From the NCBI GenBank assembly GCA_001783145.1, contig MFQT01000002.1, positions 24,941-88,940 of the forward strand: a stretch of DNA of 64,000 bases. The letters are read 5' to 3'. Source of the DNA: Candidatus Magasanikbacteria bacterium RIFOXYB2_FULL_38_10 (GTDB taxonomy: Bacteria; Patescibacteriota; Patescibacteriia; Magasanikbacterales; UBA10003). Below the pieces are notes generated by a model. It made no database searches and was not told the DNA's origin. It saw nothing but the letters and a program-made list of their open reading frames with translations. Of the stretch, positions 14,042 through 60,734 are shown in pieces; the stretch's first letter is position 1; every line of letters starts with the position of its first letter. Both the position numbers and the translations under genes were made by a program.

Positions 14042-16390
14042 TCATCCTTTAATTTTATCTACTAAATTATCTCTATAATAAGCACGGAGGCGGCAGATTT
14101 TGGAACAATTTTTAACTAAACAGCGTTTGTTTTCTAAATTGGCACTCCGCCACAATTCTTCTGGTGCCTTATCTTTCAAAGAAGCGAAAGTAATTCCGGT
14201 TTTATAGCAAAAAAACGGACGGCCCGCAGGATCAAAATTAAAAGTGCGATAAGCCAAGTGGCAAGGCCAAGCCACAGTTTTACCGGGATTTAAAAAATAT
14301 TCTTCAAAAGATAACAAATTTTTAACCGAGTTGGTAATTAAAGCGCCATTTCTTTTTTGTTTAATAAGCCAATTAAAAAAATCTTTTACGGCCTCTGGCT
14401 TTTGCGGCCATAAGGGATCATTTATAAACCAATTCTCCTGCGCGTAATCGCCCTTAAAATTTTCATCCAAAGCTTGGATGTTAACAAAAAAACCATTGGC
14501 CCGGGCAAAACTGACTAATTTTTTAGCATCTTCCCCTATATTTTTTTCATTGAGCAAGACCCCCAAACAAATTTTCATTTGGCTCCCCTGTCTTTGTTTG
14601 GCCTCGGCCAAATCAAGAATCGCTTCCTTGGCTTTTTCGTGAGCCCAAGGAATCTGCCGCAGGCTATTATGAATTGCCGGATCAAAACTGTATAAAGAAA
14701 TTCTAATTTCTTCAATTCCCGTAGCTACAATTTTGGCCGCCATTTCTTTATTAATCAAATAACCATTACTTTCCAAAATAACTCTAAAATCATTGATCTT
14801 TAAAAAATTTAAAATCTCCAGAATGTCCGGCCTAATCAAAGGCTCTCCTCCGCCCAGACTAATTAAATAGCCCGGACCAACCCATTTTCTTAAATCACTG
14901 ATGATTTTTTTCCATTCTACCGTGTTTAACTCATTTCTTTCCGCACATTTCCAGATATCACAGTGACTACACCTAAAATTGCAATTATAAGTGATGATTA
15001 AATCGCTACCCTTGGGTTTAGAAAGCGGGAAATTAAAAAAATAAGACAATTTTTCTAAAATAGAATTAAAGATTTTTTTAAAATAATTATTTTTCATAAA
15101 ATCAGACGGTTCACCCAAGACACCTTCTCCCCCAAAATTCCACACCCCCAATCCTAAAGCCAACAGCATCAAACCGCTAAAAGAACTCCATAAATAATGA
15201 TCAAACAAACTTAAAATTAAAAAAAACAATAAAATTTCTCCGCCTAATTTATTTTTCTTTAATAAAAAAAACAAAAAAATAATCAATAAAATAGTTCCTG
15301 TGATTCCTAGTTCTATAAAAACCAAAACTAAAGCATTGTGTACGGGCTGGTAACCGCTGGTTTTGTCAATTAAAGAAAACTTTTGAGCGGCAACCAGGGT
15401 ATAGTTTCCCAAACCCGTCCCCCAAAAGATATTATTTTTAAAAATTTGATAAGATTCCGTGTAGCCATTTAATCTTTGGATTTTAGACCACTCTTCCAGT
15501 TGTCCGGTAACTTCTACCCTATTTCTTAAAAGAGGCAGAAAGATTACAGAAAGAAGCGCTAAAAAAATTAAACTAAAACTGAAATTCAAAATTAAACGCC
15601 GACGGATAAAAGGAGAAAAATTTTTTTTTATCACTCTAAAAAACCAAAAAAATAAAGACACGGCCAGGGCCAGCCAGGCCGAGCGGGAAAAAGAAAAAAA
15701 TAAAGCGGCAAGAAAAATAAAATTAAAAAATAATATTCCGGCACCACTTTTTTTAAATACCCCGACAACATCATTCCTTTCTTTAATTAAAAGAAAACAG
15801 ATTATTAGGCCAAGTGCCAGGAAAGCGCCCAGAGCATTGGGGTGGGTAAAAGTACCATAGGCTCTAAGCCAGCGTCCGCCATTTTCTAAAACTGCCGTGC
15901 CTAAAGTTCCGGAATGATGCACAGTTAAACCCAAATAGCGGCTGGCAAAAGTATTTTGAGATAAAAATTGATAGATGCCCAAAAAGGCCGCCGGAAGTAG
16001 ACCTAAGACAAAACAATAAGCGGCTTTTAAATTATTAATAGCTCCACTACTGAGCAAAATAAAGAAAGCCCCAGCTTCTAAAAGATGCAAAGCTTGTTGA
16101 AAAAAAACCAATTTATCACCGGAAACAATACCGGAAACAAATAATAAAATTGCCAAAGCTGAAATTGGTACTCGATTATTTTTTAAAAAACCTAACCAAT
16201 TATTTTTTTTCCTCTTATTTAAAATTCCTGCCAACAAAATCAACCACAACAAAACTTCCTCGGCATAAATGCCTATAATGCCATACTCCCAAACAGCCCC
16301 ATTTAAAAAACCGCGGCGCAAAATGAGCCTGGTTTGCCAAGGCAGTAAAAATATAAAAAGATAAATTAAAAAATTATAGAGCTTGGTCAT
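14042..16390 (-). CDS. fusion protein: O-antigen ligase-like (Wzy_C) polytopic membrane domain + C-terminal radical SAM / SPASM-like domain
   Basis: The N-terminal roughly 440 aa have more than 10 TM helices with Wzy_C-type motifs (SRSAWLAL; HPNALGAFL; HNALVLVFIELGITG). The C-terminus carries CNFRCSHC (CX3CX2C), the LGGGEPL SAM-binding glycine motif, and C-terminal Cys clusters (FFCYKTG...CLVKNCSKIC). Confidence 0.7.
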   Translation of the reverse strand: MTKLYNFLIYLFIFLLPWQTRLILRRGFLNGAVWEYGIIGIYAEEVLLWLILLAGILNKRKKNNWLGFLKNNRVPISALAILLFVSGIVSGDKLVFFQQALHLLEAGAFFILLSSGAINNLKAAYCFVLGLLPAAFLGIYQFLSQNTFASRYLGLTVHHSGTLGTAVLENGGRWLRAYGTFTHPNALGAFLALGLIICFLLIKERNDVVGVFKKSGAGILFFNFIFLAALFFSFSRSAWLALAVSLFFWFFRVIKKNFSPFIRRRLILNFSFSLIFLALLSVIFLPLLRNRVEVTGQLEEWSKIQRLNGYTESYQIFKNNIFWGTGLGNYTLVAAQKFSLIDKTSGYQPVHNALVLVFIELGITGTILLIIFLFFLLKKNKLGGEILLFFLILSLFDHYLWSSFSGLMLLALGLGVWNFGGEGVLGEPSDFMKNNYFKKIFNSILEKLSYFFNFPLSKPKGSDLIITYNCNFRCSHCDIWKCAERNELNTVEWKKIISDLRKWVGPGYLISLGGGEPLIRPDILEILNFLKINDFRVILESNGYLINKEMAAKIVATGIEEIRISLYSFDPAIHNSLRQIPWAHEKAKEAILDLAEAKQRQGSQMKICLGVLLNEKNIGEDAKKLVSFARANGFFVNIQALDENFKGDYAQENWFINDPLWPQKPEAVKDFFNWLIKQKRNGALITNSVKNLLSFEEYFLNPGKTVAWPCHLAYRTFNFDPAGRPFFCYKTGITFASLKDKAPEELWRSANLENKRCLVKNCSKICRLRAYYRDNLVDKIKG

Positions 16391-16425: not shown

Positions 16426-17406
16426 TTATTCTACCCCGGAGGAAAATTTTTCTTGCCACAAATTATAATACCCTTCTCTTTTATCCGGGGTATGAAATTT
16501 TAAAAATCCTTCCTTAATTACAATATCATTTTTATTATGCCTCTTCCAACTCAGTCTACTGTTAATTTTTTCCATTTGTACTAGGCGTAAAAAATTCTCT
16601 AAAATACTCCCTAATTCTCCCGCCAAAAAATACTCTGCCAAGCTTCCAATCTTTCTTAACCAAGAATCTTCTTTAATTAAACGATAATCACAAGTCCTGC
16701 CCTCCTCATTCCAATTGGCTAAATTTTCTTTAATCCAAAAATTATCTTGCCAAAATTTTTCTAAAGTTTTATTGCGATTAACTAAAGGAATAAGAGAAGC
16801 AATCCAGTAATGCAAATAAACATCAATTTTATTAGGCAAGGTTAAAGCCTGTAAATTTAAATGATTCGTGTCAACAAAAAAACTTAAACAAATACGATTA
16901 GTCATTTTACTTTTAAAAGTACGCAAACCAAAAAGACGTAAGAATAAATTAGCTAAAAAACGCACAATCCAAACATGGCCGCGATTAGCCACAATAAAAA
17001 AATCAATATCACTTTCTTCCCTACTGGTGCCAAAGGCCAAACTATTGCACACGGCCACTAATTTAATAAAAGGCACCAAATTTAAAATTGTTGCGGCTTT
17101 TTGAGCAATTTGCCATTTGGGCAATTCCCAAAAAATTTTTTGAAGACGACGGGAAACCAACGACTCGTCTGGAGACAAAAAAAAGAAACCGTTGGTAGTT
17201 CCTACGGCTCCTTTTTTTATAAGAACATCCAAATCTTTTCTTAATTGAGACAAGTCTGTTTTGGCGGAACAAAAGAGATTCTCCTTAAGCTCTAACAAAG
17301 TAAGGGGTTGTTGAAAAATGGAAAAAAAAGACAGGGTTTTAATAATTGGCAGCTGTTGATTCATAAAAAGCGCTGTTCTTTTCTTCTGCTTTTTCTTCAC
17401 CGACAT
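16426..17406 (-). CDS. nucleotidyltransferase-fold protein (Pol-beta/MNT-like NS..SDIDFFIV motif) with N-terminal wHTH-like region
   Basis: CNSLAFGTSREESDIDFFIV aligns to the minimal-NTase G[SG]x9-11SDIDhhV signature. No other recognisable domain. Confidence 0.4.
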   Translation of the reverse strand: MSVKKKQKKRTALFMNQQLPIIKTLSFFSIFQQPLTLLELKENLFCSAKTDLSQLRKDLDVLIKKGAVGTTNGFFFLSPDESLVSRRLQKIFWELPKWQIAQKAATILNLVPFIKLVAVCNSLAFGTSREESDIDFFIVANRGHVWIVRFLANLFLRLFGLRTFKSKMTNRICLSFFVDTNHLNLQALTLPNKIDVYLHYWIASLIPLVNRNKTLEKFWQDNFWIKENLANWNEEGRTCDYRLIKEDSWLRKIGSLAEYFLAGELGSILENFLRLVQMEKINSRLSWKRHNKNDIVIKEGFLKFHTPDKREGYYNLWQEKFSSGVE

Positions 17407-17626
17407 TATCTTCCACTATCATCTTTTCTGGAGTAAGAGAAATAACCTGACTACGATGAATAATTAAAGGCTCTTGCAAACGTCCCAAAATTTGACCCTT
17501 TTGAACAAAGTAGCGCAAAACACTTTGACTGTCCGTATCTAATTCCAAATCAACTATAATACCCAATTTAATTTTGTTCTTGGTAAAAACCGGCAAATTT
17601 TTAATTTGTGGTAATGAGAGTAACAT
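17339..17626 (-). CDS. small PRC-barrel-like protein (YlmC/YmxH-like), start uncertain
   Basis: The track start at 17644 is TTG; the ATG at 17626 overlaps the yidC 3' end. KIKLGIIVDLELD...VLRYFV...ISLTPEKMIVED resembles PRC-barrel proteins. Could be spurious. Confidence 0.3.
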   Translation of the reverse strand: MLLSLPQIKNLPVFTKNKIKLGIIVDLELDTDSQSVLRYFVQKGQILGRLQEPLIIHRSQVISLTPEKMIVEDNVGEEKAEEKNSAFYESTAANY

Positions 17627-18335
17627 CTTTTTTCTTAAAGACAATTATTTGTTGCAAAACGGTTAAAAGCGTGGTGACGAGCCAATACAAAGTAAGACCG
17701 GCAGGGAGACCAGCGCCAATAAAAACAGTCATAAGCGGCATCATATATAGCATTTGTTTATTCATCATAGCGGCCATACCTTCGTCTTTGCTGCCCGTTC
17801 CTTTAACAACAGGCGGTTGCATCGGCAACATTTTAGTTTGCCAAAATTGCGCGGCGCCGGCCAGTACGGCCAAAATAATATTGGCGTGGCTTAAATCTAA
17901 AAAGCCAAAAGCCAAAGTTTTTATGGTGCCGGGGTTATGGACAAAAGGGTAAAGCAGTTCAAAATTTTGCGATTTTAACCCGGCACTCAATACCCAATAA
18001 AAACCAATCAGAATTGGCAGTTGAATAATCAAGGGCAGACAAGAAGCAAAAGGGTTGATCTTTTCTGTTTTATACAATTCCATCGTAGCTTGCGCCAATT
18101 TTTGTTTATCATTTTTGTACTGTTCTTTTAAAGCATTAATTTTGGGCTGAAGGCCTTGCATTGATTTTTGCGCCCGGATGGATTTATTGGACAACGGCCA
18201 CAAAATTACACGAATTAAAGCCGTAATGATAATAATAGCTACACCAAAATCATGACCGGGAATTACATTGTAAAGAAAAATCAAAATGTTAAAAATTGGC
18301 TGATAAATGATTGAATGGAATAAAGAAGAAAGCAT
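17601..18335 (-). CDS. yidC: membrane protein insertase YidC (short YidC2/SpoIIIJ type)
   Basis: YidC/Oxa1 core helices and C-terminal TLYWLVTTLLTVLQQ motif. Confidence 0.85.
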   Translation of the reverse strand: MLSSLFHSIIYQPIFNILIFLYNVIPGHDFGVAIIIITALIRVILWPLSNKSIRAQKSMQGLQPKINALKEQYKNDKQKLAQATMELYKTEKINPFASCLPLIIQLPILIGFYWVLSAGLKSQNFELLYPFVHNPGTIKTLAFGFLDLSHANIILAVLAGAAQFWQTKMLPMQPPVVKGTGSKDEGMAAMMNKQMLYMMPLMTVFIGAGLPAGLTLYWLVTTLLTVLQQIIVFKKKDVTLITTN

Positions 18336-23920: not shown

Positions 23921-25561
23921 TTAAGCCGCCACTTGAGTGGCTTTAAGCTCTTGTTTTACGGGCACACTAAAACCAAATTCGCTACCTTTATCTTTGCCCA
24001 AACTATCACACCAAATATCTCCTTTATGGCCAGCCACAAATTTGGCAGCGATATACAATCCCAGTCCGGTACCACTGCGACCCACCGCAGTTAAAACGTC
24101 TTTGCTTCTAAAAAATTTGGAAAAAACCTTTTCTTTGTCTTCTACACTAAGCCCAATGCCGGTATCCACTACGCTTACGGCAACCTTGTCGCCTAAATCC
24201 CGCAGAATTATTTTAATAGTCCCCTTTTCCGTATATTTGATAGCATTATCTACAAAATTAAAAATAACATTAACTATTTTATCTCCATCCATTTCGGCAA
24301 AAACTTTATTCTTGGCCTCGTTGACAAAACTCATTTTAATTTTAGAAGGCAAACGCGATTTTAATTCGTTAGTCACGTGTTCAATTAAAATGTTCATTTC
24401 CGTCCGCGTAAATTCAAATTGCATCTTACCGCTTTCAATCTGGCTTAAATCTAAAAATTGATCGACTAAATGCATTAACCTTTCAATACTGTAAGCAATA
24501 TTATTTAAAATCGGGGTAGTTTTTTTATCCAATTCGCCATAATCGCCATCACTTAAAAGAGAAATGTATCCTTTAATAACAGACAGCGGGGTGCGCAATT
24601 GGTGGGAAGCAATAGACAAAAAATCATTTTTGGAATGTTCCAATTCTTTAAGTTTCCAATTGGCATCGTCTAAAAGTTTTTTCAATTCCCGAGTTTTTTC
24701 CAACCTTTGAACCTCTTGTAGAATACTGCGCACCAAAAAAAACCCAAAAATTGCCGTAAATACTAAAATTATAAATTGCCAAATGGTTTCCACAATGGAA
24801 CCGGCAAAAAGCATGCTCCCTGCGGCAAACAAAACCAAACAAAAAGCAAAAATTTCACCGATTAAAACCTTAGGATGAAAAAGATAATTTTTATACAAAG
24901 CAAAACTGATGGCAATGGCGATTAAAACTCCGGATATGGGACCAAGCCAAAAATATTGCGATTGCTGTCCAGCCAAAGGATTGGTTAAAAAAACATTAAA
25001 AACCAATCCCGGGGAACTGCCTAAAATAACCCCCCAAAAAATGTAAGCCAGTTGACGCCGAGAAATTTTGTCTTCGGCTTTTTTATATCTTTTGTAAAAA
25101 ATTGCCACGCCAAAGAGCCAAAAACAAAGGAGGGCGGCAGAAAATAATTGCACACTTTCCGAAACAAAAAAAGCATCGCGTCCCCAACTGGCATGAGTGA
25201 TACCTATTAATAAATTTCCCGGCCAAAGCAAAAAAATAGAAAAAATAAAACCAAAACCTAAAAGCCAACGCAACAAAAAATGCGGACGCGGACGACTGGG
25301 CGGAAAAACATAGGCAAAATAAAACAGCCACAAACCAATCCACAGTCCCCCCACATGGCCCACTTCTAACCAAAAAAGAGCCAAAGAATCTGTTTGGGCT
25401 ACCAAAAACCCAATCATTCCCAAGGACCACAAGGCGGCCGAAACTAAAATCCATCCAAAAGCCTGAAAATGAGTGGCGAATTTGTAGCGTTTAATAAAAT
25501 AAGCGCCCGCCCCCACAGTGAAAAAAATAATTAAACTAATGAAGACAAATTGCCACTGCAT
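23921..25561 (-). CDS. sensor histidine kinase with N-terminal multi-TM sensor domain
   Basis: More than 7 TM helices; H-box FLSIASHQLRTPLSVIKGYISLL; HATPase_c N/G boxes. Confidence 0.85.
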   Translation of the reverse strand: MQWQFVFISLIIFFTVGAGAYFIKRYKFATHFQAFGWILVSAALWSLGMIGFLVAQTDSLALFWLEVGHVGGLWIGLWLFYFAYVFPPSRPRPHFLLRWLLGFGFIFSIFLLWPGNLLIGITHASWGRDAFFVSESVQLFSAALLCFWLFGVAIFYKRYKKAEDKISRRQLAYIFWGVILGSSPGLVFNVFLTNPLAGQQSQYFWLGPISGVLIAIAISFALYKNYLFHPKVLIGEIFAFCLVLFAAGSMLFAGSIVETIWQFIILVFTAIFGFFLVRSILQEVQRLEKTRELKKLLDDANWKLKELEHSKNDFLSIASHQLRTPLSVIKGYISLLSDGDYGELDKKTTPILNNIAYSIERLMHLVDQFLDLSQIESGKMQFEFTRTEMNILIEHVTNELKSRLPSKIKMSFVNEAKNKVFAEMDGDKIVNVIFNFVDNAIKYTEKGTIKIILRDLGDKVAVSVVDTGIGLSVEDKEKVFSKFFRSKDVLTAVGRSGTGLGLYIAAKFVAGHKGDIWCDSLGKDKGSEFGFSVPVKQELKATQVAA

Positions 25562-25571
25562 AAAATAAAAT

Positions 25572-27164
25572 CTAAGGTTTTAAAGGAAGCCAAATATTAA
25601 AAGTGGAGCCTTGGTTAACCCCGGAGGATTCCACCCAAATTGAGCCATTATGGGCTTCCACAAATTTACGGCACAAAAACAAACCTAAACCAACACCATT
25701 AGCATCAACCGCTTTTGCATTATTGGTGCGGTAAAACTTTTGAAACAAATTAGCCAAATCGGCCTCTTCTATGCCAATACCCTGATCTTTAATTTGTGTT
25801 AAAACTCCTTCACCATCTTCCATCATTCTTAATTGCACATCTTTAGAAAGTCCATACTTAATAGCATCATCAATTAAATGATCAAAAACATGAGTGAGTT
25901 TTTCCTCATCGCCAAAAATCTTCACCGGCTCATCAGGCAGATTAGTAATAATTTTAATCTTCTTTGTTTTGGCGGTTTCCGCTAAACGTTCAATCACCGC
26001 TTCTACTACTTTTCTTAAATCCAAATCTTTAGATACATATTGCAACCTTTGTTCTTCTAGCCTGGTGATATCCAAAAATTCATCAACCAGTTGATTTAAT
26101 TTTTTATTATTCTGATCAATGGCGGAAAAAACTTCATCAACTTTTTTATCGGCCTTGCCATAGGCTCCTTCTCTTAACAAGGAAATGTAGCCACCAATAA
26201 TAGTTAAGGGGGTGCGTAATTGATGGGCGACAATAGATAAAAAATCACTTTTAGCTTTATCCAAAACAATTAAAGATTTATTGGCCTCCTCTACTTTGGC
26301 AGCCAATTTTTGCATTTCTTCCCTCTTGTCAACTTCTTCTTTAATGGTACGAATTAAAAGCCAACCTAAAAAAGCCACAGTTAAAGTAAACAAGGAACGG
26401 AAAACAATTTCCCAAATTGATTTAGATAAAAATAACCCGATGATAATTAAAAAAAGGATTGAGGCGATAAAAATTTCCGTACGAATAACTTTGGCACCAA
26501 GCAAATGATGCTGAGTAATGGCATAGGCCAAAATAAAAGGAAAAGCCAGGCCGGAAAAATAAGAAAAAGGGTAACGAATATCAATGTTGTAAGCCGAAAG
26601 ATAAGCTGTGCCGCCCACAAACATTACAACGGAAAAAGCCAAAACCACGTAAACGGCTTGAGTTTTAAATTTTTTATCTTGACTGTTTTTATACGCTCGC
26701 CAAATATTGATGATAAAAATTTGTACACCCCAATAAAAAAAGAGCAAAAAAAAGTGATGCAAAATTCTGGCTTGAGTGTGAGCTCCCCAGCTATAACGAT
26801 AGATTTCATCAACAAAATAAGGAGTGCGGCTGACTAAAAGAAAAAAAATGGATACTAAATAAGTAAAAATCAAAATTTTTCTTTGACCCTTGTTATTGGT
26901 AAACACCAAACTAAAATGATGCATTAAGGCGGGCATTAAAGAAACCCCTAAATAAACGAATCTGTCCCACCAAACAGCCGCCACCTCATTATTTTTGTTT
27001 AGAAACATCATGAAGGTGCCCACCAGCCAAAAAATCATCGCCACGCAAAAAGCCAAAAAAAGGCGGTTAAGCGGCGAGCGCGGATTTTCATAAAAAACAA
27101 ACCAAGCCAAAATGGCCACAAAAATGGCGCAGACAAGCGGTAAAATTGTGCCGAGGTCAAACAT
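25572..27164 (-). CDS. sensor histidine kinase (paralogue of the adjacent one)
   Basis: Multi-TM N-terminus; H-box FLSIVAHQLRTPLTIIGGYISLL; HATPase_c. Confidence 0.85.
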   Translation of the reverse strand: MFDLGTILPLVCAIFVAILAWFVFYENPRSPLNRLFLAFCVAMIFWLVGTFMMFLNKNNEVAAVWWDRFVYLGVSLMPALMHHFSLVFTNNKGQRKILIFTYLVSIFFLLVSRTPYFVDEIYRYSWGAHTQARILHHFFLLFFYWGVQIFIINIWRAYKNSQDKKFKTQAVYVVLAFSVVMFVGGTAYLSAYNIDIRYPFSYFSGLAFPFILAYAITQHHLLGAKVIRTEIFIASILFLIIIGLFLSKSIWEIVFRSLFTLTVAFLGWLLIRTIKEEVDKREEMQKLAAKVEEANKSLIVLDKAKSDFLSIVAHQLRTPLTIIGGYISLLREGAYGKADKKVDEVFSAIDQNNKKLNQLVDEFLDITRLEEQRLQYVSKDLDLRKVVEAVIERLAETAKTKKIKIITNLPDEPVKIFGDEEKLTHVFDHLIDDAIKYGLSKDVQLRMMEDGEGVLTQIKDQGIGIEEADLANLFQKFYRTNNAKAVDANGVGLGLFLCRKFVEAHNGSIWVESSGVNQGSTFNIWLPLKP

Positions 27165-31384: not shown

Positions 31385-32407
31385 TTATCCCACAATCGGC
31401 ACGGTAATTTTAAAGGTAGTGTTCCAACCGCCGTCAGTATCCGGCGACATCACCTCTATATTACCCCCGACTTTTAAAAGACGCTTATCAGCATAAGCCA
31501 AACCCTTGCCCCCTTCTTCTATCCCGCGCAAAGCCTCTTCCTTGGTAGAAAATTTTTCATCAAAAATCCTGCCTTGAATTTCTTTGGGTATGCCTATTCC
31601 GTTGTCAGAAAATTTAAAAACCAAATTTTGTCCGTCTCTTTCAATGATCAATTGCACTCGACTATCTTGCATATTTTTTATATCCGATCTTAAAGCATTG
31701 GATAAACAATTCTGCAAAATATTAAAAATCAAACCGTGAGGAGCTTTAATTTTCAAATTTGTCGCTTCCTCCGCTGTAATATTGTTATAAATTACTTCTG
31801 GTTTGTTATTCAAATATTCAGGACCGCTTTTGTGAAAACCGCCGTCAAAACCACCTAAAAGCCATTCCAAAGTTTTGACCAAACGTCCAATGTCTTTTTC
31901 TTGATCAATATTCCTCACCATTACTTCCGCGGGATTCTCTCCTCTTAAAAATAAATCTTCCATTATTAGACGATAGGCCTCCCAATTCTTTTTTACGGAA
32001 ACCCACCTTTCCAACAAATACTCCAGATCTTGTTCGGTAAATTCTTTCCCTTTCAAATAATCTTCACAAATGTCTTCCAAAATAATCTGTTTGCTCATAT
32101 CTATAACCGCCCTTCTAAAATTTTTAGCATCGTGGGTAAAATAGCCTTTCATTTTTTTAGATAGATGACGGCTCAAATCTCTTGTTTTTAACAAATTATC
32201 TAAGGCTGATTTGATTGAAGAAAAAACTATCTCATTTTCTTGATTGCGACCAACTGTCAAACGATGAATCAAAGACTCAACCTCTACAAAGGCCTTATCA
32301 TATAAATCCAATTCTTTAAAAGGCATTAAATGAATCTCTTTTGCCTCTTTCAAAAAGATATCCGATTTATTTTTTAAAATTATCTCTCCATTATTTTTTT
32401 CAAGCAT
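31385..32407 (-). CDS. cytoplasmic histidine-kinase-like ATPase (HATPase_c) protein
   Basis: N/G1/G2 boxes (NALRSDIKN; FSDNGIGIP; GGKGLAYAD). No TM helices; possible divergent H-box YFTHDAKNFRRAV. Confidence 0.6.
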   Translation of the reverse strand: MLEKNNGEIILKNKSDIFLKEAKEIHLMPFKELDLYDKAFVEVESLIHRLTVGRNQENEIVFSSIKSALDNLLKTRDLSRHLSKKMKGYFTHDAKNFRRAVIDMSKQIILEDICEDYLKGKEFTEQDLEYLLERWVSVKKNWEAYRLIMEDLFLRGENPAEVMVRNIDQEKDIGRLVKTLEWLLGGFDGGFHKSGPEYLNNKPEVIYNNITAEEATNLKIKAPHGLIFNILQNCLSNALRSDIKNMQDSRVQLIIERDGQNLVFKFSDNGIGIPKEIQGRIFDEKFSTKEEALRGIEEGGKGLAYADKRLLKVGGNIEVMSPDTDGGWNTTFKITVPIVG

Positions 32408-40337: not shown

Positions 40338-41933
40338 TTAGTCTGCCGGAGTTACCCGCAGAATTTCTGCAATAGTTGTAAGACCTTGCTTCACCTTAGC
40401 CAAACCGGCCTGGCGCAAAGTCATCATGCCCAAACTTTTGGCCTCTTGTCTTAATTCAGCCGGCGAGAGACCACGCAAAAGAGCTTTCTTGAATTCCTCA
40501 GACATAGGCAATACTTCTTGAATTCCAACAAACCCCTTAAAACCAGTATTGCCACAAGTTCGGCAACCCCCACCCTTCTTTAATTTGAGAGTCACTAAGT
40601 CAGTTGATGTAAAACCAACAGAACTAAGACCCTCCATTGGGCTGTCATCATCTTCTCTGCAATCTTTGCAAATCCGACGCGCCAATCTTTGCGCGCAGAT
40701 CAAGGACAAAGAAGACGCCAGAATGAAGGGCGAGAAGTCCATATCAAGCAATCTGCCAACCGCAGAAGAAGCATTCTCGGTCTGGAAGGAAGAAAGAACC
40801 AGCCGCCCGGACAAAGAAGATTTGATTAGAGCTTCAATCGTTTCTCTGTCCCAAGGCGATTCCCCCACCATCATGACATTGGCACCCTGAGATTCCAAGT
40901 GCCGAATGGCTGCTTCAAGGTTGAAGCCAATTCTTGTATTTAGCTGTACCTGATTAATACCGCCAAAATCCTCCAAAATAGGGTCTTCAATCGTAAAGAT
41001 ATTCCGGTTAGGATCATTAAGTTCGGTAAGAAGAGCGTACAAAGTGGTATACCGACCGGAACCAACCGGACCGGTCACCAAAATCAAACCCGAGGATTTT
41101 TTAGCCGCCTGTGTTACTTGTTCAAGCTGAGCTGTTTCAAACCCCAGATTTTCCAAGTGCTTTCGCCCATTAGATCTATCCAGAATGTGCAGTACCACAC
41201 TTTCGCCATGAGCGACAGGCATAGTACTTACATTAAAGTCGACGTTCTTGTCCCTACCCATTACCAGTTGGATGCGGCCTTTTTGGGGCAAAAACCGATC
41301 AGTAATATCAAGATCAGCCATGATCTTGATTCTGGCAACTATGGCATCCTTCAGTTTCTGTGGAGGCCGCATAACTTCAAATAATTGACCTTCTATGCGA
41401 TAACGCACGCGAAAATTACGGGAGTAGGGCTCTATATGGATACTGGAAGCTCCGCGCTTTACCGCATCCACCAGAATCAAATTGACCAATCTGACTATTG
41501 GAACCTCTTGCGAGGATGAATACCCCATTCTTTCTTCTTCCCGATTATCAGGTTCTTCATCAGATGAATCCACGGGAAAACTACTCAAATCAACAGGAGT
41601 TTCTTCTTCAAAAGATTTCCCAAATCCAGAAGCAAGGTGTGGTGCCTCTACAAAACCAACCCTATAATATCTGTCCAAGGCTCGTTCAATTTTATCAGCA
41701 GGAATATTTGCAACTTCAACTTTATAACCAGTCAAAAACTTTATATCTTCAATGGCATCAGTATTACTAGGACCAACCATAGTGATAGTGAGGGTTTTGT
41801 CAACGATGCAAAGCGGCACGAGTTTAAACCGCAAGGCCACTTCTCGTGGTACTAAAGCCAACACATCAGATGGCACTTCATACTCATCTAGGTTGAAACC
41901 GGTAAAGAAATTAACACCAGTAGACTCGACCAT
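40338..41933 (-). CDS. GspE/PilB-family secretion ATPase homologue with degenerate catalytic motifs, GC-rich (about 48%)
   Basis: GSPII_E N-domain. Walker A is GPVGSGRYTT (K changed to R). Asp box is ESPWDRET (insertion). His box is SFQTENA (H changed to Q). Tetracysteine CKDC...CRTC is retained. RBS AGAGGT. Confidence 0.75.
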   Translation of the reverse strand: MVESTGVNFFTGFNLDEYEVPSDVLALVPREVALRFKLVPLCIVDKTLTITMVGPSNTDAIEDIKFLTGYKVEVANIPADKIERALDRYYRVGFVEAPHLASGFGKSFEEETPVDLSSFPVDSSDEEPDNREEERMGYSSSQEVPIVRLVNLILVDAVKRGASSIHIEPYSRNFRVRYRIEGQLFEVMRPPQKLKDAIVARIKIMADLDITDRFLPQKGRIQLVMGRDKNVDFNVSTMPVAHGESVVLHILDRSNGRKHLENLGFETAQLEQVTQAAKKSSGLILVTGPVGSGRYTTLYALLTELNDPNRNIFTIEDPILEDFGGINQVQLNTRIGFNLEAAIRHLESQGANVMMVGESPWDRETIEALIKSSLSGRLVLSSFQTENASSAVGRLLDMDFSPFILASSLSLICAQRLARRICKDCREDDDSPMEGLSSVGFTSTDLVTLKLKKGGGCRTCGNTGFKGFVGIQEVLPMSEEFKKALLRGLSPAELRQEAKSLGMMTLRQAGLAKVKQGLTTIAEILRVTPAD

Positions 41934-47275: not shown

Positions 47276-48694
47276 TTACTTATTGATAAAACAACGAGTT
47301 GGATCAATTGGAAGACATAACCCCGCGTCGCTATTGTCTAAGGATGGAAATTCAGATCTTGTTAAATTAATATTACAATTAAATCCATCCTCCAAATTTT
47401 TAAGGCTAAAAAGATTTTCTTTGGGAACCAGCACTGAATTTCTTGGCGAAGAAGAATCTTTTTGATAGGACAAAGCTTTACATGACCAATATTCAAAACT
47501 ATCCGAAGGCAATAATAATTTACTTAAATTAACATTACATAAACCATTTTGTTGACCTAGGGCAAACCAATCGTCACAGCCACCTGCCGCGCCTCCCTCA
47601 TCATTTACTTCAACTCCTAAATAAAAACCCAAAACACCGCCGCTACCGCAAGTGGAATTTATTTGATTTTCCAACCGACTTTTAGTTACATTAAATTTAT
47701 ATTTTTGGGAATTGGCACCAAGATTCTCGGCGGCAATTGATTGCACGAAAAACGTATCACCGTTATTTTTACAAATACCAATTAACTCAATTTTATTATC
47801 AATATAAGGAAATGGGACATCGGTAGAAGATATTACTCCCGATAAATTTCCCTCTTGGCAAAAATAGCTATTTTCACTTTGCTTCACGCAAACCTTGGGA
47901 ACAGCAGAATTAAAATCATTGCAAGCGTGTCCCCAGCAAGTTTTATTATCGGAATTTTCCCAAAAAAACTCATGACCGCAACGCGGGCCTTGCAAAAAAC
48001 CGCTTAAAGCGGGACTGCTGGAAAAAAGGTTAGTCTGGGCATCATATTTGTAATCCCCTTCTGGAACTTCCAGAGAGCTCTTAAAACTTCCCGCAAAAGC
48101 AACCATGGTTTTTAAAGGTAAATCTTTGCAAAATTCCACAGCAAGCGCGGCAGGCCTGACCATGTAAGTTTTTGGCAGACGCAACCTAACCAAATCCGGA
48201 TTGATCGTATAAAGCAAAGTATAAGCTCCGAGAAGCAAAAGCAAACCAAAAATAGCACTGCTGATTCTAGTTTTGGCGGCCGTCACTTTTTCCGCAGAAC
48301 CGGCCGAGGTTAAATAAATAAAACCACCAATAATAATTAAAATTACGGCAATCAAGCCGCCTACGCTAAGTGCAAAAAGATATATGGTTTTTAAATAATC
48401 ACCCAAATCAGAAAATTTAATCTTACCGCCTATGGTAATTTCCGCATCGGTTTGGCCGGCTGGAATGCAATAACCTGCATTGGGGCCGCAAACATTATCC
48501 AAACCCCCCACTAGAAAATTATCAGCGGAAAACTTCCATTTATTTTCTTCAATCATGGCTTTGCAACTGCTATAAGTCCAGCACAAAGGATTAGCAACCG
48601 ATCCAGACTCGCCGGTTCCCTGCGCCAAAACTGTCGGACTGAAAAAAAATAAACCCAAAACAATCGCTACCCGGAAAATTTTTTTGGATTTCAT
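47276..48694 (-). CDS. secreted cysteine-rich protein with internal two-helix hydrophobic hairpin (VirB2/TrbC-pilin-like)
   Basis: Signal peptide [26 protein letters not shown]. Hairpin [65 protein letters not shown]-terminal roughly 280 aa are Cys-rich, like the giant protein. Confidence 0.5.
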
Positions 48695-56972: not shown

Positions 56973-58400
56973 ATGAAAAAAACTGCCATCATTTTAACTA
57001 CTATTTCTTTACCTCTGGATTTTCTAATGCTTACGGCCGCCGGTGTCTCGGCCTATTTTTTGCGTTTTAATACTTTTTTTACCAAAATTAAACCTGTTAT
57101 TTTTAACTTATCTTTTGAAGACTATTTACCAGTCATGTTTTCTGTAGCCGCTTTTTGGATTGTTCTTTTTATCTTAGCCGGACTTTACGGCACCAAACCA
57201 ACCCGCAGGCTCGCCAGCGAACTTTCCCGCGTAGTCTTCGCCTGCTCCACAGGACTCGCCGCTATTACCATTTACATTTTTTTTCAACAAGAATTTTTCA
57301 ACTCTCGTTTTATTGTTTTGGCCGGCTGGGCACTGGCTATAATTTTTGTCAGTTTGGGACGCGTTATTTTAAAAATCATTAAAAATATTCTTTTCCGCGC
57401 CGGTATTGGCGTTAAAAAAATTGTCATTATCGGAGCGGGACGCGTCAGTGACATTCTTTTTGAAACCTTAAAACAGCGTCGCGGTTTTGGCCTTTCTGTG
57501 GTAGGGCATTATCCTAATTTTAGTTTAGAATCAGCACCGGAATTAAAAGAAATGATCGCTAAAAAACAACTGGATGAAATTCTTTTTTGCAATTCCAAAA
57601 GCAGTGAACAAGAAGCCTTGGCGGTTTTAAATTTTTGTGAAGAAAACCATTTGGATTTTAAATATTCCGCCGATCTCTTTTCCACTTATCTCGCCAACAC
57701 TTCTATTTATGCCATCGGCGGCGTACCCATTGTAGAAGCTCATAAAACCAATCTACAAGCTTGGGGCAGGGTAATTAAAAGATTGTTGGATATTTTTTTA
57801 TCTTTTATTTTTATCATCATCGCCAGCCCTTTGTTAATTGTTTTTTCCTTAGCAACACTAACAGAAAGCAGGAGGCCTGTTATTTATAAAAATGAACGGG
57901 TCGGAGAGGCGGGTAAAAAATTTTTTACTTTAAAGTTTCGTTCCATGTATCAAAAATATTGCATCGGACCGCAATTTAAAAATCAAGCCGAGGCTTTAAA
58001 TTTTGAACAAAAATTGATTGCCCAGCAAAATACCAAAACCGGGCCGGTTTATAAAATTAAAAATGATCCTCGTATCACCAAAGTCGGCAAACTGATGCGC
58101 CGGCTAAGCATTGACGAACTGCCCCAATTATTTAATGTTTTGAAAGGGGAAATGAGCTTAGTAGGTCCGCGTCCGCATCAGCCGCGCGAAGTGGAAAAAT
58201 ATGCAAAAAATCAACGCAAGGTTTTAAATATCAAACCGGGCATAACCGGGCTAGCCCAAATTTCCGGCCGCAGTGATTTGGAATTTGAAGAAGAAGTAAA
58301 ATTAGACACTCTATATTTAGAACACTGGTCATTATTGCTTGATTTAATTATTTTAATAAAGACACCTTTTATTCTTCTTAAATCCAGAAAAGCCTTATAA
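56973..58400 (+). CDS. polyprenyl-phosphate sugar-1-phosphate transferase (WbaP/EpsL-like priming glycosyltransferase)
   Basis: Bacterial sugar transferase C-domain ASPLLIVFSLATLTESRRPVIYKNERVG...DELPQLFNVLKGEMSLVGPRP. Confidence 0.85.
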   Translation: MKKTAIILTTISLPLDFLMLTAAGVSAYFLRFNTFFTKIKPVIFNLSFEDYLPVMFSVAAFWIVLFILAGLYGTKPTRRLASELSRVVFACSTGLAAITIYIFFQQEFFNSRFIVLAGWALAIIFVSLGRVILKIIKNILFRAGIGVKKIVIIGAGRVSDILFETLKQRRGFGLSVVGHYPNFSLESAPELKEMIAKKQLDEILFCNSKSSEQEALAVLNFCEENHLDFKYSADLFSTYLANTSIYAIGGVPIVEAHKTNLQAWGRVIKRLLDIFLSFIFIIIASPLLIVFSLATLTESRRPVIYKNERVGEAGKKFFTLKFRSMYQKYCIGPQFKNQAEALNFEQKLIAQQNTKTGPVYKIKNDPRITKVGKLMRRLSIDELPQLFNVLKGEMSLVGPRPHQPREVEKYAKNQRKVLNIKPGITGLAQISGRSDLEFEEEVKLDTLYLEHWSLLLDLIILIKTPFILLKSRKAL

Positions 58401-58403
58401 TTT

Positions 58404-59528
58404 ATGAAGGTTGCTTTAGTTCATGATTATCTATCTCAAGACGGAGGAGCAGAAAGAGTTTTAAAAGCCCTGCAGGAATTGTATCCGGAGGCTCCTACTT
58501 TTGTTTTGTTTTATGATAAAACTAAATTGCCCGAACATTTTTTTAAACAAGAGGTTCGTCCCAGTTTTATTCACTTTCTTCCTTTTGCCAAAAATCATTA
58601 TCGCTGGTATTTGTCTTTAATGCCCTTGGCCACCGAAAGGCATAATTTAAAAGATTTTGATGTGGTAATCTCCTCTACCTCGGCTTTTGCCAAAGGCATC
58701 ATCACTAATCCGGAAACCCTGCATCTTTCTTACTGCCACACACCAACCCGCTATCTTTGGACTGACACCCACAGCTATATAGAAGAAATGCACACTAATT
58801 TTTTAGTTAAGGCTCTCTTGCCACCACTCATTTCTCGTTTGCGCATGTGGGACAGAATGAGCGCGGAGAGAGTGGATCACTTTTGGGCCAATTCAGAAAA
58901 TGTCAGAAGGCGTATTCAAAAATTTTATAAACGCGATGCCGAGGTTATTTATCCGCCGGTAGATACTCACCTTTTTAAAATTTCAGAAAATGTTGAAAAT
59001 TATTTTTTAACCGGCGGAAGATTAGTTCCCTACAAACATTTTGATTTAACTATTAAAGTTTTCAATCGTTTGGGCTGGCCTTTAAAAATTTTTGGTGCTG
59101 GACCAGAAGAAAAAAAACTTAAAAGTTTGGCTAGATCTAACATTGAATTTTTGGGCCCGATAAAAGATGAAAAAAAAATCGAACTGTATGCTAACGCACA
59201 GGCATTTATTCATCCTCAAGCGGAAGATTTTGGCATCACGGCAGTGGAAGCCATGTCCGCCGGACGCCCGGTAATTGCTTTTGCCCAAGGGGGAGCCTTA
59301 GAAACGGTTATACCTAACTCCACCGGCCTGCTTTTTGCCGAACAGTCTTGGGAGTCGCTTTTAGAAACTCTTTTAAAATTTGATTCTTCCGCTTTTAATC
59401 CGCCAGTTATCAAAGAATTTGCAGAAAATTTTAGTTTGGAAAATTTTAAAAATAAAGTGACGGAAAGCGTGCGCGGACGTTTTGAAGATTTTCAAAAAGG
59501 CTACCAACAACTGCCGTTGAAGATTTAA
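58404..59528 (+). CDS. glycosyltransferase family 4
   Basis: MKVALVHDYL N-terminus; GT4 EX7E region. Confidence 0.75.
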   Translation: MKVALVHDYLSQDGGAERVLKALQELYPEAPTFVLFYDKTKLPEHFFKQEVRPSFIHFLPFAKNHYRWYLSLMPLATERHNLKDFDVVISSTSAFAKGIITNPETLHLSYCHTPTRYLWTDTHSYIEEMHTNFLVKALLPPLISRLRMWDRMSAERVDHFWANSENVRRRIQKFYKRDAEVIYPPVDTHLFKISENVENYFLTGGRLVPYKHFDLTIKVFNRLGWPLKIFGAGPEEKKLKSLARSNIEFLGPIKDEKKIELYANAQAFIHPQAEDFGITAVEAMSAGRPVIAFAQGGALETVIPNSTGLLFAEQSWESLLETLLKFDSSAFNPPVIKEFAENFSLENFKNKVTESVRGRFEDFQKGYQQLPLKI

Positions 59529-59582
59529 AATAATTATACTTCTGTCCGGTAATTCACAAAGAAAAGTCATTTTTATCAATCT

Positions 59583-60695
59583 ATGAACATTGGCATCGAT
59601 GCCAGATTTTATTCTGAAGCAGGCGGCCTTGGCCGTTATGTAAAAGAGCTTATAAAAGAACTGGAAAAACAGGATTCCGGCAATTTTTATCATATTTTTC
59701 TCAATCAGGAAGGATTTAAAGAATATAATCCAATCAACCCCTATTTTAAAAAAATCTTAGCCGATGTTAAATGGTACACCTTGGCGGAACAGATAAAAAT
59801 GAAAAAAATAATTGCGGCGCAACCAATAGACTTGATGCATTTTCCTCATTGGAATATTCCTTTTTTCTACCGCCGCCCTTTTGTTATCACCATTCATGAT
59901 TTAATTCTTTTAAAATTTCCCTCCCGCCGGGCTTCTACTTTAGGACCTTTAAAATATTGGATTAAAAATCTTGCTTACCGTTTAATTTTAAAACACGCCA
60001 TACGATCTTCTAAAAAAATTTTTGCCCCTTCCAATTTTGTTAAAGAAGATATTTTAAATAATTTTAAAGTCCCGGCAAAAAAAATAATTATCACCCACGA
60101 GGGATTGACGGTTCTCCCCCCTCCTAATCCGGACACCGCCGCCGCAATTCTCCAAAAATTTTCTCTCCAAAAACCGTATTTTCTTTATGTCGGAGTAAGT
60201 TATCCTCATAAAAATTTGGAAAAATTAATTTTGGGTTTTAAAAAATTTCAAGAACAAGAAAAAAAATCTCAATTGGTTTTGGTCGGCAAAAAAAATTACT
60301 TTTATGAAAAATTAGAAAAATTCTCCGAGCAAAATAAGGTGCCTAATGTAATTTTTACGGATTTTGTAACTAATGATGAATTAGCCACTCTGTATCAAAA
60401 CGCTAAGGCCTATGTTTTTCCCAGTCTTTGTGAAGGTTTTGGCTTACCTCCCTTGGAAGCCATGTCGTTTAATCTGCCAATAGCTTCCTCCAACACCTCT
60501 TGTTTGCCGGAAATCTTAGGCAATGCCGCCTTATATTTTAACCCCGTCTCTTCTGCCGACATAACCGAAGCCTTAAAAAGGCTGACAACGGATGAAAAAC
60601 TACGCCAAAAATTAATCTCTGCCGGGCAAGAGAGAATCAAGTTCTTTTCCTGGCAAAATTGTGCACAACTTACCTTACAAGAATACTTAAAATAA
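59583..60695 (+). CDS. glycosyltransferase family 4
   Basis: MNIGIDARF...GGLGRY N-terminus; C-terminal GT1/GT4 fold motifs (FPSLCEGFGLPPLEAM). Confidence 0.75.
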   Translation: MNIGIDARFYSEAGGLGRYVKELIKELEKQDSGNFYHIFLNQEGFKEYNPINPYFKKILADVKWYTLAEQIKMKKIIAAQPIDLMHFPHWNIPFFYRRPFVITIHDLILLKFPSRRASTLGPLKYWIKNLAYRLILKHAIRSSKKIFAPSNFVKEDILNNFKVPAKKIIITHEGLTVLPPPNPDTAAAILQKFSLQKPYFLYVGVSYPHKNLEKLILGFKKFQEQEKKSQLVLVGKKNYFYEKLEKFSEQNKVPNVIFTDFVTNDELATLYQNAKAYVFPSLCEGFGLPPLEAMSFNLPIASSNTSCLPEILGNAALYFNPVSSADITEALKRLTTDEKLRQKLISAGQERIKFFSWQNCAQLTLQEYLK

Positions 60696-60734
60696 TGTAT
60701 AATAGTAGTATTAAGGAAACATTATTTTAAGCCC

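What the first reader, a model, noticed from the sequence alone, without database searches (positions are those of the whole stretch)
14042..16390. Fusion of an O-antigen-ligase/Wzy_C-like membrane domain to a radical SAM/SPASM domain
The N-terminal roughly 440 aa carry Wzy_C hallmarks (SRSAWLAL, HPNALG, HNALVLVFIELGITG) over more than 10 TM helices. The C-terminal roughly 330 aa carry a canonical CX3CX2C (CNFRCSHC), the GGGEPL motif and a C-terminal Cys cluster (C-x4-C-x3-C) typical of SPASM/twitch auxiliary clusters. Radical SAM-SPASM enzymes normally act on peptides or cofactors. Direct fusion to a lipid-linked glycan ligase/polymerase fold suggests radical chemistry on a lipid-linked or cell-surface glycan or peptide substrate. 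I do not recognise this architecture from characterised systems.
Basis: partly seen in the sequence, partly recalled or inferred. Interest (0 to 1): 0.7.

Follow-up and report, generated by a model that had tools for sequence, protein, structure and literature searches.

The report
WaaL-type ligase fused to radical SAM
A real, recurrent but uncharacterised gene fusion in tiny CPR bacteria joins a membrane enzyme that attaches lipid-carried sugar chains outside the cell to a cytoplasmic radical-chemistry enzyme, which probably alters a sugar of that chain before it is exported.

Summary
Window 14042-16390 (-) is one 782-aa ORF. Residues 1-421 form a 12-TM Wzy_C/WaaL-fold domain. Residues 444-782 form a radical SAM domain with an invariant CX3CX2C, a GGE motif and four invariant C-terminal cysteines.

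It is not an assembly artefact. The same ORF is recovered from independent assemblies, and a second, separately evolved fusion clade exists in Falkowbacteria and Buchananbacteria.

The window protein's nearest relatives carry the two halves as separate, overlapping genes in either order. They are always next to a conserved ~315-aa winged-helix/Pol-beta nucleotidyltransferase-like gene.

The NTase-like + Wzy_C pair is widespread in CPR genomes (NusA-YidC-PRC-NTase-Wzy_C-GroESL). The radical SAM gene is an accessory third part.

Topology puts the radical SAM domain in the cytoplasm, across the membrane from the ligase site. The C-terminal cluster motif is twitch-like (one auxiliary cluster), not a full SPASM.

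The best structural match is the sugar decarboxylase BlsE. The same radical SAM clade is also repeatedly fused to GT2 glycosyltransferases.

Most likely the domain modifies a sugar of a lipid-linked glycan or its precursor at the inner face, coupled to ligation outside. The substrate and the reaction are inferred, not shown. No literature on this fusion was found.

The parts
14042..16390 (-). Whole 782-aa fusion ORF, including the TGA stop at 14042-14044. Deposited as KKR48914.1, KKS57250.1, OGH86140.1 and UniRef100_A0A0G1A888, where it is named 'Glycosyl transferase family 2'.
15128..16390 (-). aa 1-421: 12-TM Wzy_C / WaaL-fold (GT-C_B) membrane domain. Conserved outward-facing residues are R173-W-L-R-A-Y-G, H183-P-N, R236, R291, E299, R306, Q348-P-x-H351-N, E360 and D397-H.
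15062..15127 (-). aa 422-443: Gly/Glu-rich disordered linker. It ends just before Met444, which aligns with the start Met of standalone radical SAM homologues.
   Evidence: pLDDT<50 at 421-433. Junction comparison with L004.
14045..15061 (-). aa 444-782: cytoplasmic radical SAM domain with a twitch-like C-terminal extension.
14960..14983 (-). C470-x3-C474-x2-C477, the radical SAM [4Fe-4S] binding motif.
   Evidence: Invariant in 7 fusions and 12 close homologues. Present in at least 143 of 147 family representatives.
14837..14854 (-). GGGEPL (aa 513-518), the SAM-binding GGE motif.
14093..14263 (-). aa 710-766: auxiliary-cluster motif C710-x12-G723-x4-C728 ... C762-x3-C766, plus the non-conserved C757.
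16426..17406 (-). Conserved partner gene encoding a winged-helix + Pol-beta-type nucleotidyltransferase-like protein. It is 326 aa from the first ATG; gene callers use M15 at 17364, giving 312 aa (P0155). D133 and D135 are invariant and S132 and I134 nearly invariant (S-D-I-D motif).
17339..17644 (-). Small PRC-barrel ORF (~95-101 aa) that overlaps the end of YidC and the start of the NTase-like gene. It is conserved in this position in several CPR loci. Whether it belongs to the module is uncertain.
56973..60695 (+). Possible substrate-supply genes, not adjacent to the fusion: a Bac_transf initiating phosphoglycosyltransferase followed by two GT4 glycosyltransferases. A DUF4012 protein follows at 60735-63152.

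Best explanation
The ORF encodes a genuine bifunctional inner-membrane enzyme of a Candidatus Magasanikbacteria (CPR/Patescibacteria) bacterium.

The N-terminal 12-TM domain is a WaaL/PglL-type GT-C_B transferase. Its active site (conserved Arg and His residues) faces outward. It is inferred to transfer a polyprenyl-diphosphate-linked glycan to an acceptor on the cell surface.

The C-terminal domain is joined by a ~20-residue flexible linker to the cytoplasmic end of TM12. It is a radical SAM enzyme with one SAM-cleaving [4Fe-4S] cluster (C470/C474/C477) and one auxiliary twitch-type cluster (C710/C728/C762/C766).

It is proposed to carry out a radical modification of a sugar, either in the lipid-linked glycan or in its soluble precursor, at the inner face of the membrane before flipping. 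Candidate reactions, by analogy with BlsE, DesII and BtrN, are oxidation, decarboxylation or epimerisation. The fusion would tether that tailoring step to the ligase that consumes the product.

The enzyme works within a conserved module that also contains an upstream winged-helix/Pol-beta nucleotidyltransferase-like protein.

Shown here: the fusion is real, both domains have intact catalytic motifs, the genes are linked, and the topology is predicted. Inferred: the identity of the substrate, the reaction type, and the role of the NTase-like protein.
For: Fusion is real:
- An identical 782-aa ORF occurs on several contigs from independent ENA, Logan, JGI and NCBI assemblies.
- Six further fusions at 31-36% identity include P0006, found on at least 24 contigs.

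Functional link between the halves:
- In the closest relatives the halves are separate adjacent genes. The order is Wzy_C->rSAM in L004 and rSAM->Wzy_C in L005 and L006/7.
- Trees of the two halves are congruent and place the window fusion inside the split clade, apart from the other fusion clade. That implies at least two independent fusions.
- Met444 aligns with the start of the standalone rSAM proteins.

Domain identity:
- Pfam hits for both domains pass their cut-offs.
- In this enzyme family, conserved arginines coordinate the Und-PP pyrophosphate and a His is the proposed catalytic base (PMC12800693).
- The rSAM motifs are conserved in at least 143 of 147 family representatives.

Cytoplasmic location of the rSAM domain:
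- Hydropathy and the positive-inside rule give 12 TM helices with N and C termini inside, consistent with the helices in the AF2 model.

Sugar or glycan substrate:
- 11 of 28 long members of the same rSAM clade are fused to soluble GT2 glycosyltransferases.
- Standalone relatives sit next to a Bac_transf phosphoglycosyltransferase (L041) or a GT-C glycosyltransferase in a DPANN archaeon (L012).
- The rSAM core is preceded by only ~25 residues, too few for an RRE leader-binding domain.
- The window itself encodes a Bac_transf + 2xGT4 glycan assembly cluster.
Against: - No substrate or product is known, and nothing here was tested biochemically.
- The Wzy_C family also includes protein O-oligosaccharyltransferases, so a protein substrate is possible.
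- The two active sites lie on opposite faces of the membrane, so direct channelling is impossible. The benefit of fusion may be only co-localisation or stoichiometry.
- Most CPR NTase-like + Wzy_C modules lack the rSAM gene, so it is dispensable for the core function.
- I could not read the model's coordinates or PAE, so the clustering of the four Cys and the domain orientation are unverified.
- Topology comes from hydropathy, not from a dedicated predictor or an experiment.
Confidence: 0.5

Rival explanations
1. The radical SAM domain modifies a protein or peptide, in the way anSME, SuiB or SkfB do. Candidates are a pilin, an S-layer protein or another secreted protein, modified in the cytoplasm. 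The Wzy_C domain then acts as a PglL/PilO-type O-oligosaccharyltransferase and glycosylates that same protein outside the cell.
Against: There is no RRE domain ahead of the rSAM core. No conserved small precursor gene lies next to the rSAM gene in any of the contexts. The same rSAM clade is repeatedly fused to GT2 glycosyltransferases, which points to sugars. The NTase-like partner also occurs without the rSAM gene.
Confidence: 0.2
2. The radical SAM domain acts on the lipid itself, meaning the polyprenyl carrier or a membrane lipid tail, as GDGT-MAS/Tes does. Being tethered to a polytopic membrane protein would give it access to the bilayer.
Against: The similarity to GDGT-MAS is confined to the common rSAM core. 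This domain lacks the extra domains of the 500-aa lipid enzymes. Clade members fused to GT2 have no TM segments and are soluble. BlsE and the SPASM/twitch enzymes are closer matches.
Confidence: 0.1
3. The fusion has no mechanistic meaning. Two overlapping operon genes merged through a small frame change, and the rSAM domain does an unrelated job that merely tolerates being tethered.
For: In the sister locus L004 the two genes overlap by 14 nt in different frames, so a single indel would fuse them. Most relatives keep them separate.
Against: The two genes stay adjacent through changes in gene order. They co-evolve and have fused at least twice independently. This pattern indicates functional coupling.
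Confidence: 0.12
4. The fusion is an assembly or sequencing artefact, such as a frameshift error that joined two genes.
For: The nearest relative has overlapping genes one frame apart.
Against: The identical 782-aa ORF is recovered in independent assemblies from different samples and pipelines. A second fusion clade is seen on dozens of contigs.
Confidence: 0.02

Closest known systems
WaaL O-antigen ligase (Cupriavidus metallidurans, PDB 7TPG/7TPJ) and the Wzy_C family in general (PglL, PglS and PilO O-oligosaccharyltransferases, Wzy polymerases)
   Different: Only about 14% identity. The host is a CPR bacterium, which I take from general knowledge (not tested here) to be monoderm and to have no LPS, so the acceptor cannot be assumed to be lipid A-core. 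There are extra N-terminal and 143-183 beta-hairpin loops. The protein carries a C-terminal cytoplasmic radical SAM domain, which no characterised family member has.
BlsE, the radical SAM cytosylglucuronic acid decarboxylase (PDB 7VOB)
   Different: 15% identity. The sequence match covers only the core (E 3e-3). BlsE is a soluble enzyme of an antibiotic pathway that acts on a nucleoside-sugar. Nothing shows that the reaction here is the same.
Twitch/SPASM radical SAM enzymes (BtrN, DesII, anSME, SuiB, SkfB, PqqE, MoaA)
   Different: Only four Cys are invariant, plus one at a variable position, against seven in the SPASM motif. The window protein has no Pfam SPASM hit. There is no RRE domain. 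No curated NCBIfam model is reached.
GT2 glycosyltransferase-radical SAM fusion proteins (uncharacterised; for example P0283, P0296, P0342, P0384)
   Same: They carry the same radical SAM clade (profile scores from about 220 to 311 bits, E from about 7e-61 to 5e-88) joined to a glycan-building enzyme.
   Different: The partner is a soluble GT-A-fold GT2 rather than a membrane GT-C. Most also carry a second radical SAM/SPASM domain. None is characterised.
Aminoglycoside and lincosamide O-nucleotidyltransferases ANT(4'), AAD(9) and LinB (closest to the partner gene)

Membership tests
Wzy_C / O-antigen ligase family (PF04932, WaaL-type GT-C_B) | Match to the family profile above the curated threshold | tested here: met
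   PF04932 scores 55.7 bits against a cut-off of 31.7, over aa 223-370.
Wzy_C / O-antigen ligase family (PF04932, WaaL-type GT-C_B) | Polytopic (~12 TM) WaaL fold with a large external loop | tested here: met
Wzy_C / O-antigen ligase family (PF04932, WaaL-type GT-C_B) | Conserved Arg residues for the Und-PP pyrophosphate and a catalytic His | tested here: met
   R236, R306 and H351 are invariant or nearly so and align to R191, R265 and H313 of 7tpg. The general roles come from PMC12800693. I could not check the role of each numbered WaaL residue because the structure paper is not held.
Wzy_C / O-antigen ligase family (PF04932, WaaL-type GT-C_B) | Transfer of an Und-PP-linked glycan to a defined acceptor (lipid A-core, protein or growing chain) | not testable with these tools
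   This needs biochemistry. The acceptor in CPR bacteria is unknown.
Radical SAM superfamily (PF04055) | Profile match above threshold, a CX3CX2C cluster motif and a GGE SAM-binding motif | tested here: met
   PF04055 scores 72.6 bits against a cut-off of 29.5. C470, C474 and C477 and G514, G515 and E516 are invariant and present in at least 143 of 147 representatives.
Radical SAM superfamily (PF04055) | Partial TIM-barrel radical SAM fold | tested here: met
SPASM subfamily (PF13186; two auxiliary clusters) | Seven-Cys motif CX9-15GX4C ... CX2CX5CX3C ... C, and a PF13186 match | tested here: not met
   The window protein has no PF13186 hit at E<=0.1. Only C710-x12-G-x4-C728 and C762-x3-C766 are conserved. 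The fifth Cys varies, and 104 of 147 representatives have five Cys in the tail. Some relatives give weak or faint SPASM hits. The motif definition is from my own knowledge of the family.
Twitch subclass of radical SAM enzymes (one auxiliary cluster) | Abridged SPASM region with a hairpin CX9-15GX4C plus enough Cys to bind one [4Fe-4S] cluster | tested here: inconclusive
   The sequence pattern fits, with four invariant Cys, and the twitch enzymes BtrN, SkfB and SpeY are structural relatives.
BlsE-type sugar decarboxylase | Orthology to BlsE, or shared substrate-binding residues | tested here: inconclusive
   BlsE is the top structural hit, but identity is 15% and the sequence match covers only the core at E 3e-3. 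Substrate-binding residues were not compared.
Viperin / pVip antiviral radical SAM | Full-length match above the curated cut-off | tested here: not met
   NCBIfam viperin_w_prok scores 49.3 bits against a cut-off of 180. The PADLOC pVip hit of 62 bits covers only profile positions 6-160 of 257. The gene sits in a housekeeping operon rather than a defence island.
RiPP-maturase radical SAM enzymes with an RRE | An N-terminal PqqD-like RRE domain and an adjacent precursor peptide gene | tested here: not met
   About 25-40 residues precede the CX3CX2C motif in both fused and standalone forms. No conserved small ORF is present in the contexts.
Pol-beta-type nucleotidyltransferase (partner gene) | NTase fold with a G/S-x-D-x-D metal-binding motif | tested here: inconclusive

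The most novel reading that the evidence does not exclude
This radical SAM clade (989 cluster representatives at E<=1e-30) is a previously unrecognised family of glycan-tailoring radical enzymes. They would work at the cytoplasmic face on polyprenyl-linked glycans or their immediate precursors. In CPR bacteria one member has been recruited at least twice, by gene fusion, onto the WaaL-type ligase of a conserved cell-envelope module (NTase-like + Wzy_C) that sits beside YidC and GroESL. The product would be a radical-modified surface glycoconjugate of a chemical type not yet described for bacterial envelopes.
Probability: 0.3. Interest if true: 0.75.

Novelty: new variant of a known kind. Interest (0 to 1): 0.55.

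Why it matters
CPR/Patescibacteria make up a large share of bacterial diversity, yet the chemistry of their cell envelope is almost unknown. They widely keep a WaaL-type ligase next to YidC and GroESL although, as far as I know, they lack LPS (general knowledge, not tested here).

A radical SAM enzyme repeatedly linked to that ligase, by adjacency, co-evolution and two independent fusions, marks a surface glycoconjugate pathway with an unusual tailoring step.

It also gives a concrete, testable system: one 782-aa protein, one partner gene, and a candidate substrate-supply cluster on the same contig. The same radical SAM clade fused to GT2 enzymes suggests that radical tailoring of glycans is more widespread than the few known nucleotide-sugar examples such as DesII, BtrN and BlsE.

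In practical terms, the public name of this protein ('Glycosyl transferase family 2') is wrong and should be corrected.

Tried and rejected
- **Assembly or frameshift artefact.** Rejected: identical ORFs occur in independent assemblies.
- **Canonical SPASM domain.** Rejected: there is no PF13186 hit and only four invariant Cys.
- **Viperin or a defence system.** Rejected: only partial core matches, in a housekeeping context.
- **RiPP maturase with an RRE.** No RRE and no precursor gene were found.
- **Tes/GDGT-MAS-type lipid enzyme.** Only core similarity.
- **Direct sequence search of the N-terminal half against the PDB.** It found nothing. A profile was needed to reach WaaL.
- **Genome contigs survey.** The back-translated patterns were too narrow. 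They recovered only six full-length relatives and missed the second fusion clade, so no quantitative co-occurrence statistic could be computed.
- **Literature.** Eight searches for the fusion or for related systems found nothing relevant (and partly 74).
- **WaaL structure paper.** It could not be read, so the roles of the numbered WaaL residues are not verified from the source.
- **Distant full-length rSAM relatives (L009-L013).** They lack Wzy_C and NTase-like neighbours, so the three-gene link is specific to CPR.
Full report
**Observation.** Window 14042-16390 (minus strand) is a single 782-aa ORF with an ATG start and a TGA stop. At this base composition the chance of 782 stop-free codons is about 1e-24. 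Pfam finds Wzy_C at aa 223-370 (55.7 bits, cut-off 31.7) and Radical_SAM at aa 465-603 (72.6 bits, cut-off 29.5). It finds no SPASM hit at E<=0.1. NCBIfam gives only partial, sub-threshold matches to NirJ2, GeoRSP, AhbD, mycofactocin, MoaA and viperin models, so the protein belongs to no curated equivalog.

**N-terminal half.**
- Hydropathy and the positive-inside rule give 12 TM helices. The Lys/Arg-rich loops at 59-73, 206-213, 256-263 and 376-381 lie inside. The conserved loops at 143-183 and 291-349 lie outside. Both termini are in the cytoplasm, which agrees with the helices of the AlphaFold model (mean pLDDT 88.8).
- A profile of CPR Wzy_C proteins hits only the WaaL structure 7tpg (E 8e-4). 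In that alignment window R236, R306 and H351 fall on R191, R265 and H313 of WaaL. These residues are invariant or nearly so in the family.
- In this fold, conserved arginines coordinate the Und-PP pyrophosphate and a histidine is the proposed catalytic base (PMC12800693). I could not read the WaaL structure paper to confirm the role of each numbered residue.

**C-terminal half.**
- C470-x3-C474-x2-C477 and G514-G-E516 are invariant across seven fusions and twelve close homologues. They are present in at least 143 of 147 family representatives.
- The C-terminal extension carries C710-x12-G723-x4-C728 and C762-x3-C766, conserved to the same degree.
A fifth Cys after CxxxC is present in many relatives but is Ala in the window protein.
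- That pattern is the hairpin motif of SPASM/twitch domains followed by only two more fixed Cys. It is enough for one auxiliary [4Fe-4S] cluster, so the domain looks twitch-like rather than like a full seven-Cys SPASM. Cluster content is inferred, not shown.
- Only about 25-40 residues precede the core, so there is no RRE leader-binding domain.

**Not an artefact, and how the fusion arose.**
- The exact 782-aa sequence is deposited under three NCBI accessions and in UniRef, where it is named 'Glycosyl transferase family 2'. It occurs on seven contigs.
- Independent ENA, Logan and JGI assemblies contain the same ORF in the same context.
- Six further full-length fusions at 31-36% identity come from Falkowbacteria, Buchananbacteria and unnamed CPR bacteria. 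One of them was found on at least 24 contigs.
- The window's rSAM half is 49-59% identical to standalone ~350-aa proteins but only 29-34% identical to the rSAM halves of the other fusions. The Wzy_C half shows the same pattern.
- NJ trees of the two halves are congruent. They put the window protein beside the split gene pair of locus L004 and place the other six fusions in a separate clade. These trees have no bootstrap support, but the identity gaps are large.
- The fusion therefore arose at least twice.
- In L004 the Wzy_C and rSAM genes overlap by 14 nt in different frames. Met444 of the window protein aligns with the start Met of the standalone rSAM protein. It is preceded by a Gly/Glu-rich linker that the model predicts to be disordered.

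**Gene neighbourhood.**
- In every CPR locus examined, the rSAM and Wzy_C parts lie next to a conserved ~305-326-aa gene. Their forms are:
  - fused: window, L001-3, L042;
  - split in the order Wzy_C->rSAM: L004;
  - split in the order rSAM->Wzy_C: L005/L008, L006/L007.
- The conserved neighbour corresponds to window 16426-17406 and is 30-45% identical across loci.
- That family has at least 128 members, all from Patescibacteria. Its 100%-identical member names the window organism as Candidatus Magasanikbacteria.
- Many CPR genomes have only the pair NTase-like + Wzy_C, embedded in NusA-YidC-(PRC barrel)-NTase-like-Wzy_C-(GroES-GroEL), with no rSAM gene (L032, L033/34).
- The core is therefore the two-gene pair. 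The rSAM gene is an accessory found in a minority of lineages and fused in some of them.

**The wider radical SAM clade.**
- An exhaustive profile search finds 989 cluster representatives at E<=1e-30.
- Of 28 long members scanned, 11 carry an N-terminal GT2 glycosyltransferase and have no TM segments.
- Most of the others are tandem radical SAM proteins. One carries a B12-binding radical SAM module, one carries TPR repeats, and a few have only Pfam-unmatched sequence ahead of the radical SAM domain.
- A standalone relative near the second fusion clade lies between PBP2 and a Bac_transf phosphoglycosyltransferase, close to RodA (L041).
- A DPANN archaeal relative lies beside a GT-C glycosyltransferase and methyltransferases (L012).
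- These distant relatives lack the Wzy_C and NTase-like neighbours.
- The window itself encodes a Bac_transf enzyme, two GT4 enzymes and a DUF4012 protein about 40 kb away.

**Most likely mechanism (confidence 0.5 for the whole statement).** The Wzy_C domain transfers a polyprenyl-diphosphate-linked glycan to a surface acceptor outside the cell. The tethered cytoplasmic radical SAM domain tailors a sugar of that glycan, or its precursor, at the inner face before flipping. The reaction is probably a redox-type one (oxidation, decarboxylation or epimerisation) of the kind catalysed by BlsE, DesII and BtrN. Because the two active sites lie on opposite faces of the membrane, the fusion can provide co-localisation and fixed stoichiometry but not channelling.
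- Shown: the fusion is real, the motifs are intact, the genes are linked and co-evolve, and the fold matches hold.
- Inferred: the topology (from hydropathy), the cluster number, the substrate class and the reaction.

**Rival explanations.**
- A protein substrate, with the Wzy_C domain acting as an O-oligosaccharyltransferase (0.2).
- A lipid substrate (0.1).
- A fusion with no mechanistic coupling (0.12).
- An artefact (0.02).
- A viperin-like or defence role is rejected.

**Novelty.** Both domains belong to well-known superfamilies, and the sequences are already public, although misnamed. Eight literature searches found no description of a Wzy_C-radical SAM fusion, of the three-gene CPR module, or of the GT2-radical SAM fusions (in part; one search returned only irrelevant matches). 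I rate the finding a new variant of a known kind, of moderate to good interest (0.55). The main value is a testable entry point into CPR envelope glycobiology and a possible new class of glycan-tailoring radical enzymes.

**Limits.**
- No biochemistry was done.
- I had no access to the model coordinates or PAE.
- The genome survey used patterns that were too narrow to give co-occurrence statistics.
- The structural lead of BlsE over peptide-modifying relatives is small.

Noticed in passing
window 56973-63152 (+): A glycan assembly cluster: a Bac_transf initiating phosphoglycosyltransferase (475 aa), two GT4 glycosyltransferases and an 805-aa DUF4012 protein. It is a candidate source of the lipid-linked substrate for the Wzy_C domain.
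   Followed up: partly
window 52143-54116 (+): A 657-aa DUF2079 polytopic membrane protein just upstream of RNase J and the glycan cluster. It may be another envelope glycan enzyme.
   Followed up: no
window 17339-17644 (-): A small PRC-barrel ORF that overlaps both the 3' end of yidC and the 5' end of the NTase-like gene. The same arrangement recurs in L005, L033/34, L035 and L040, which suggests translational coupling of YidC, PRC, NTase-like and Wzy_C.
   Followed up: partly
window 23921-27164 (-) and 31385-32407 (-): Two tandem paralogous histidine kinases with 7TM N-terminal domains (HisKA_7TM), plus a third HATPase_c protein nearby among aminoacyl-tRNA synthetase genes.
   Followed up: no
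window 40338-41933 (-) and 47276-48694 (-): A type II/IV secretion (pilus) ATPase and a 472-aa protein with a T4SS_pilin-like segment. These are possible protein acceptors if the Wzy_C domain is an O-oligosaccharyltransferase.
   Followed up: no
public records KKR48914.1, KKS57250.1, OGH86140.1 (= window 14042-16390): The deposited name 'Glycosyl transferase family 2' does not fit: the protein has no GT2 domain. The name was probably transferred through the radical SAM half from GT2-radical SAM fusion proteins.
   Followed up: partly
L005/L008 10270-11657: In this Buchananbacteria MAG the Wzy_C gene downstream of the rSAM gene is split into two ORFs of 170 and 300 aa. This is a frameshift, a pseudogene or a sequencing error.
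   Followed up: no
L013 2183-8371 (Nanobdellati archaeon): Three paralogues of this radical SAM family lie within 6 kb, interleaved with a methyltransferase and a cytidine/deoxycytidylate deaminase-like protein. No Wzy_C or NTase-like gene is present.
   Followed up: partly
L011 1836-2801; L042 9296-10531: Flavoprotein oxidoreductases lie immediately downstream of the rSAM gene or the fusion. One is thioredoxin-reductase-like (Pyr_redox_2) and the other HI0933-like. They could supply the reducing electrons.
   Followed up: no
proteins P0283, P0284, P0290, P0296, P0298, P0300, P0303 (1134-1493 aa): Giant soluble proteins that combine an N-terminal GT2 domain, a ~300-aa unassigned region, a radical SAM/SPASM domain and a second radical SAM domain of the window's clade. 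I found no description of this architecture.
   Followed up: partly
L009/L010: Full-length relatives of the rSAM domain (31% identity) sit on contigs labelled 'uncultured Gammaproteobacteria'. They lack the module partners, and the taxonomic label was not verified.
   Followed up: no
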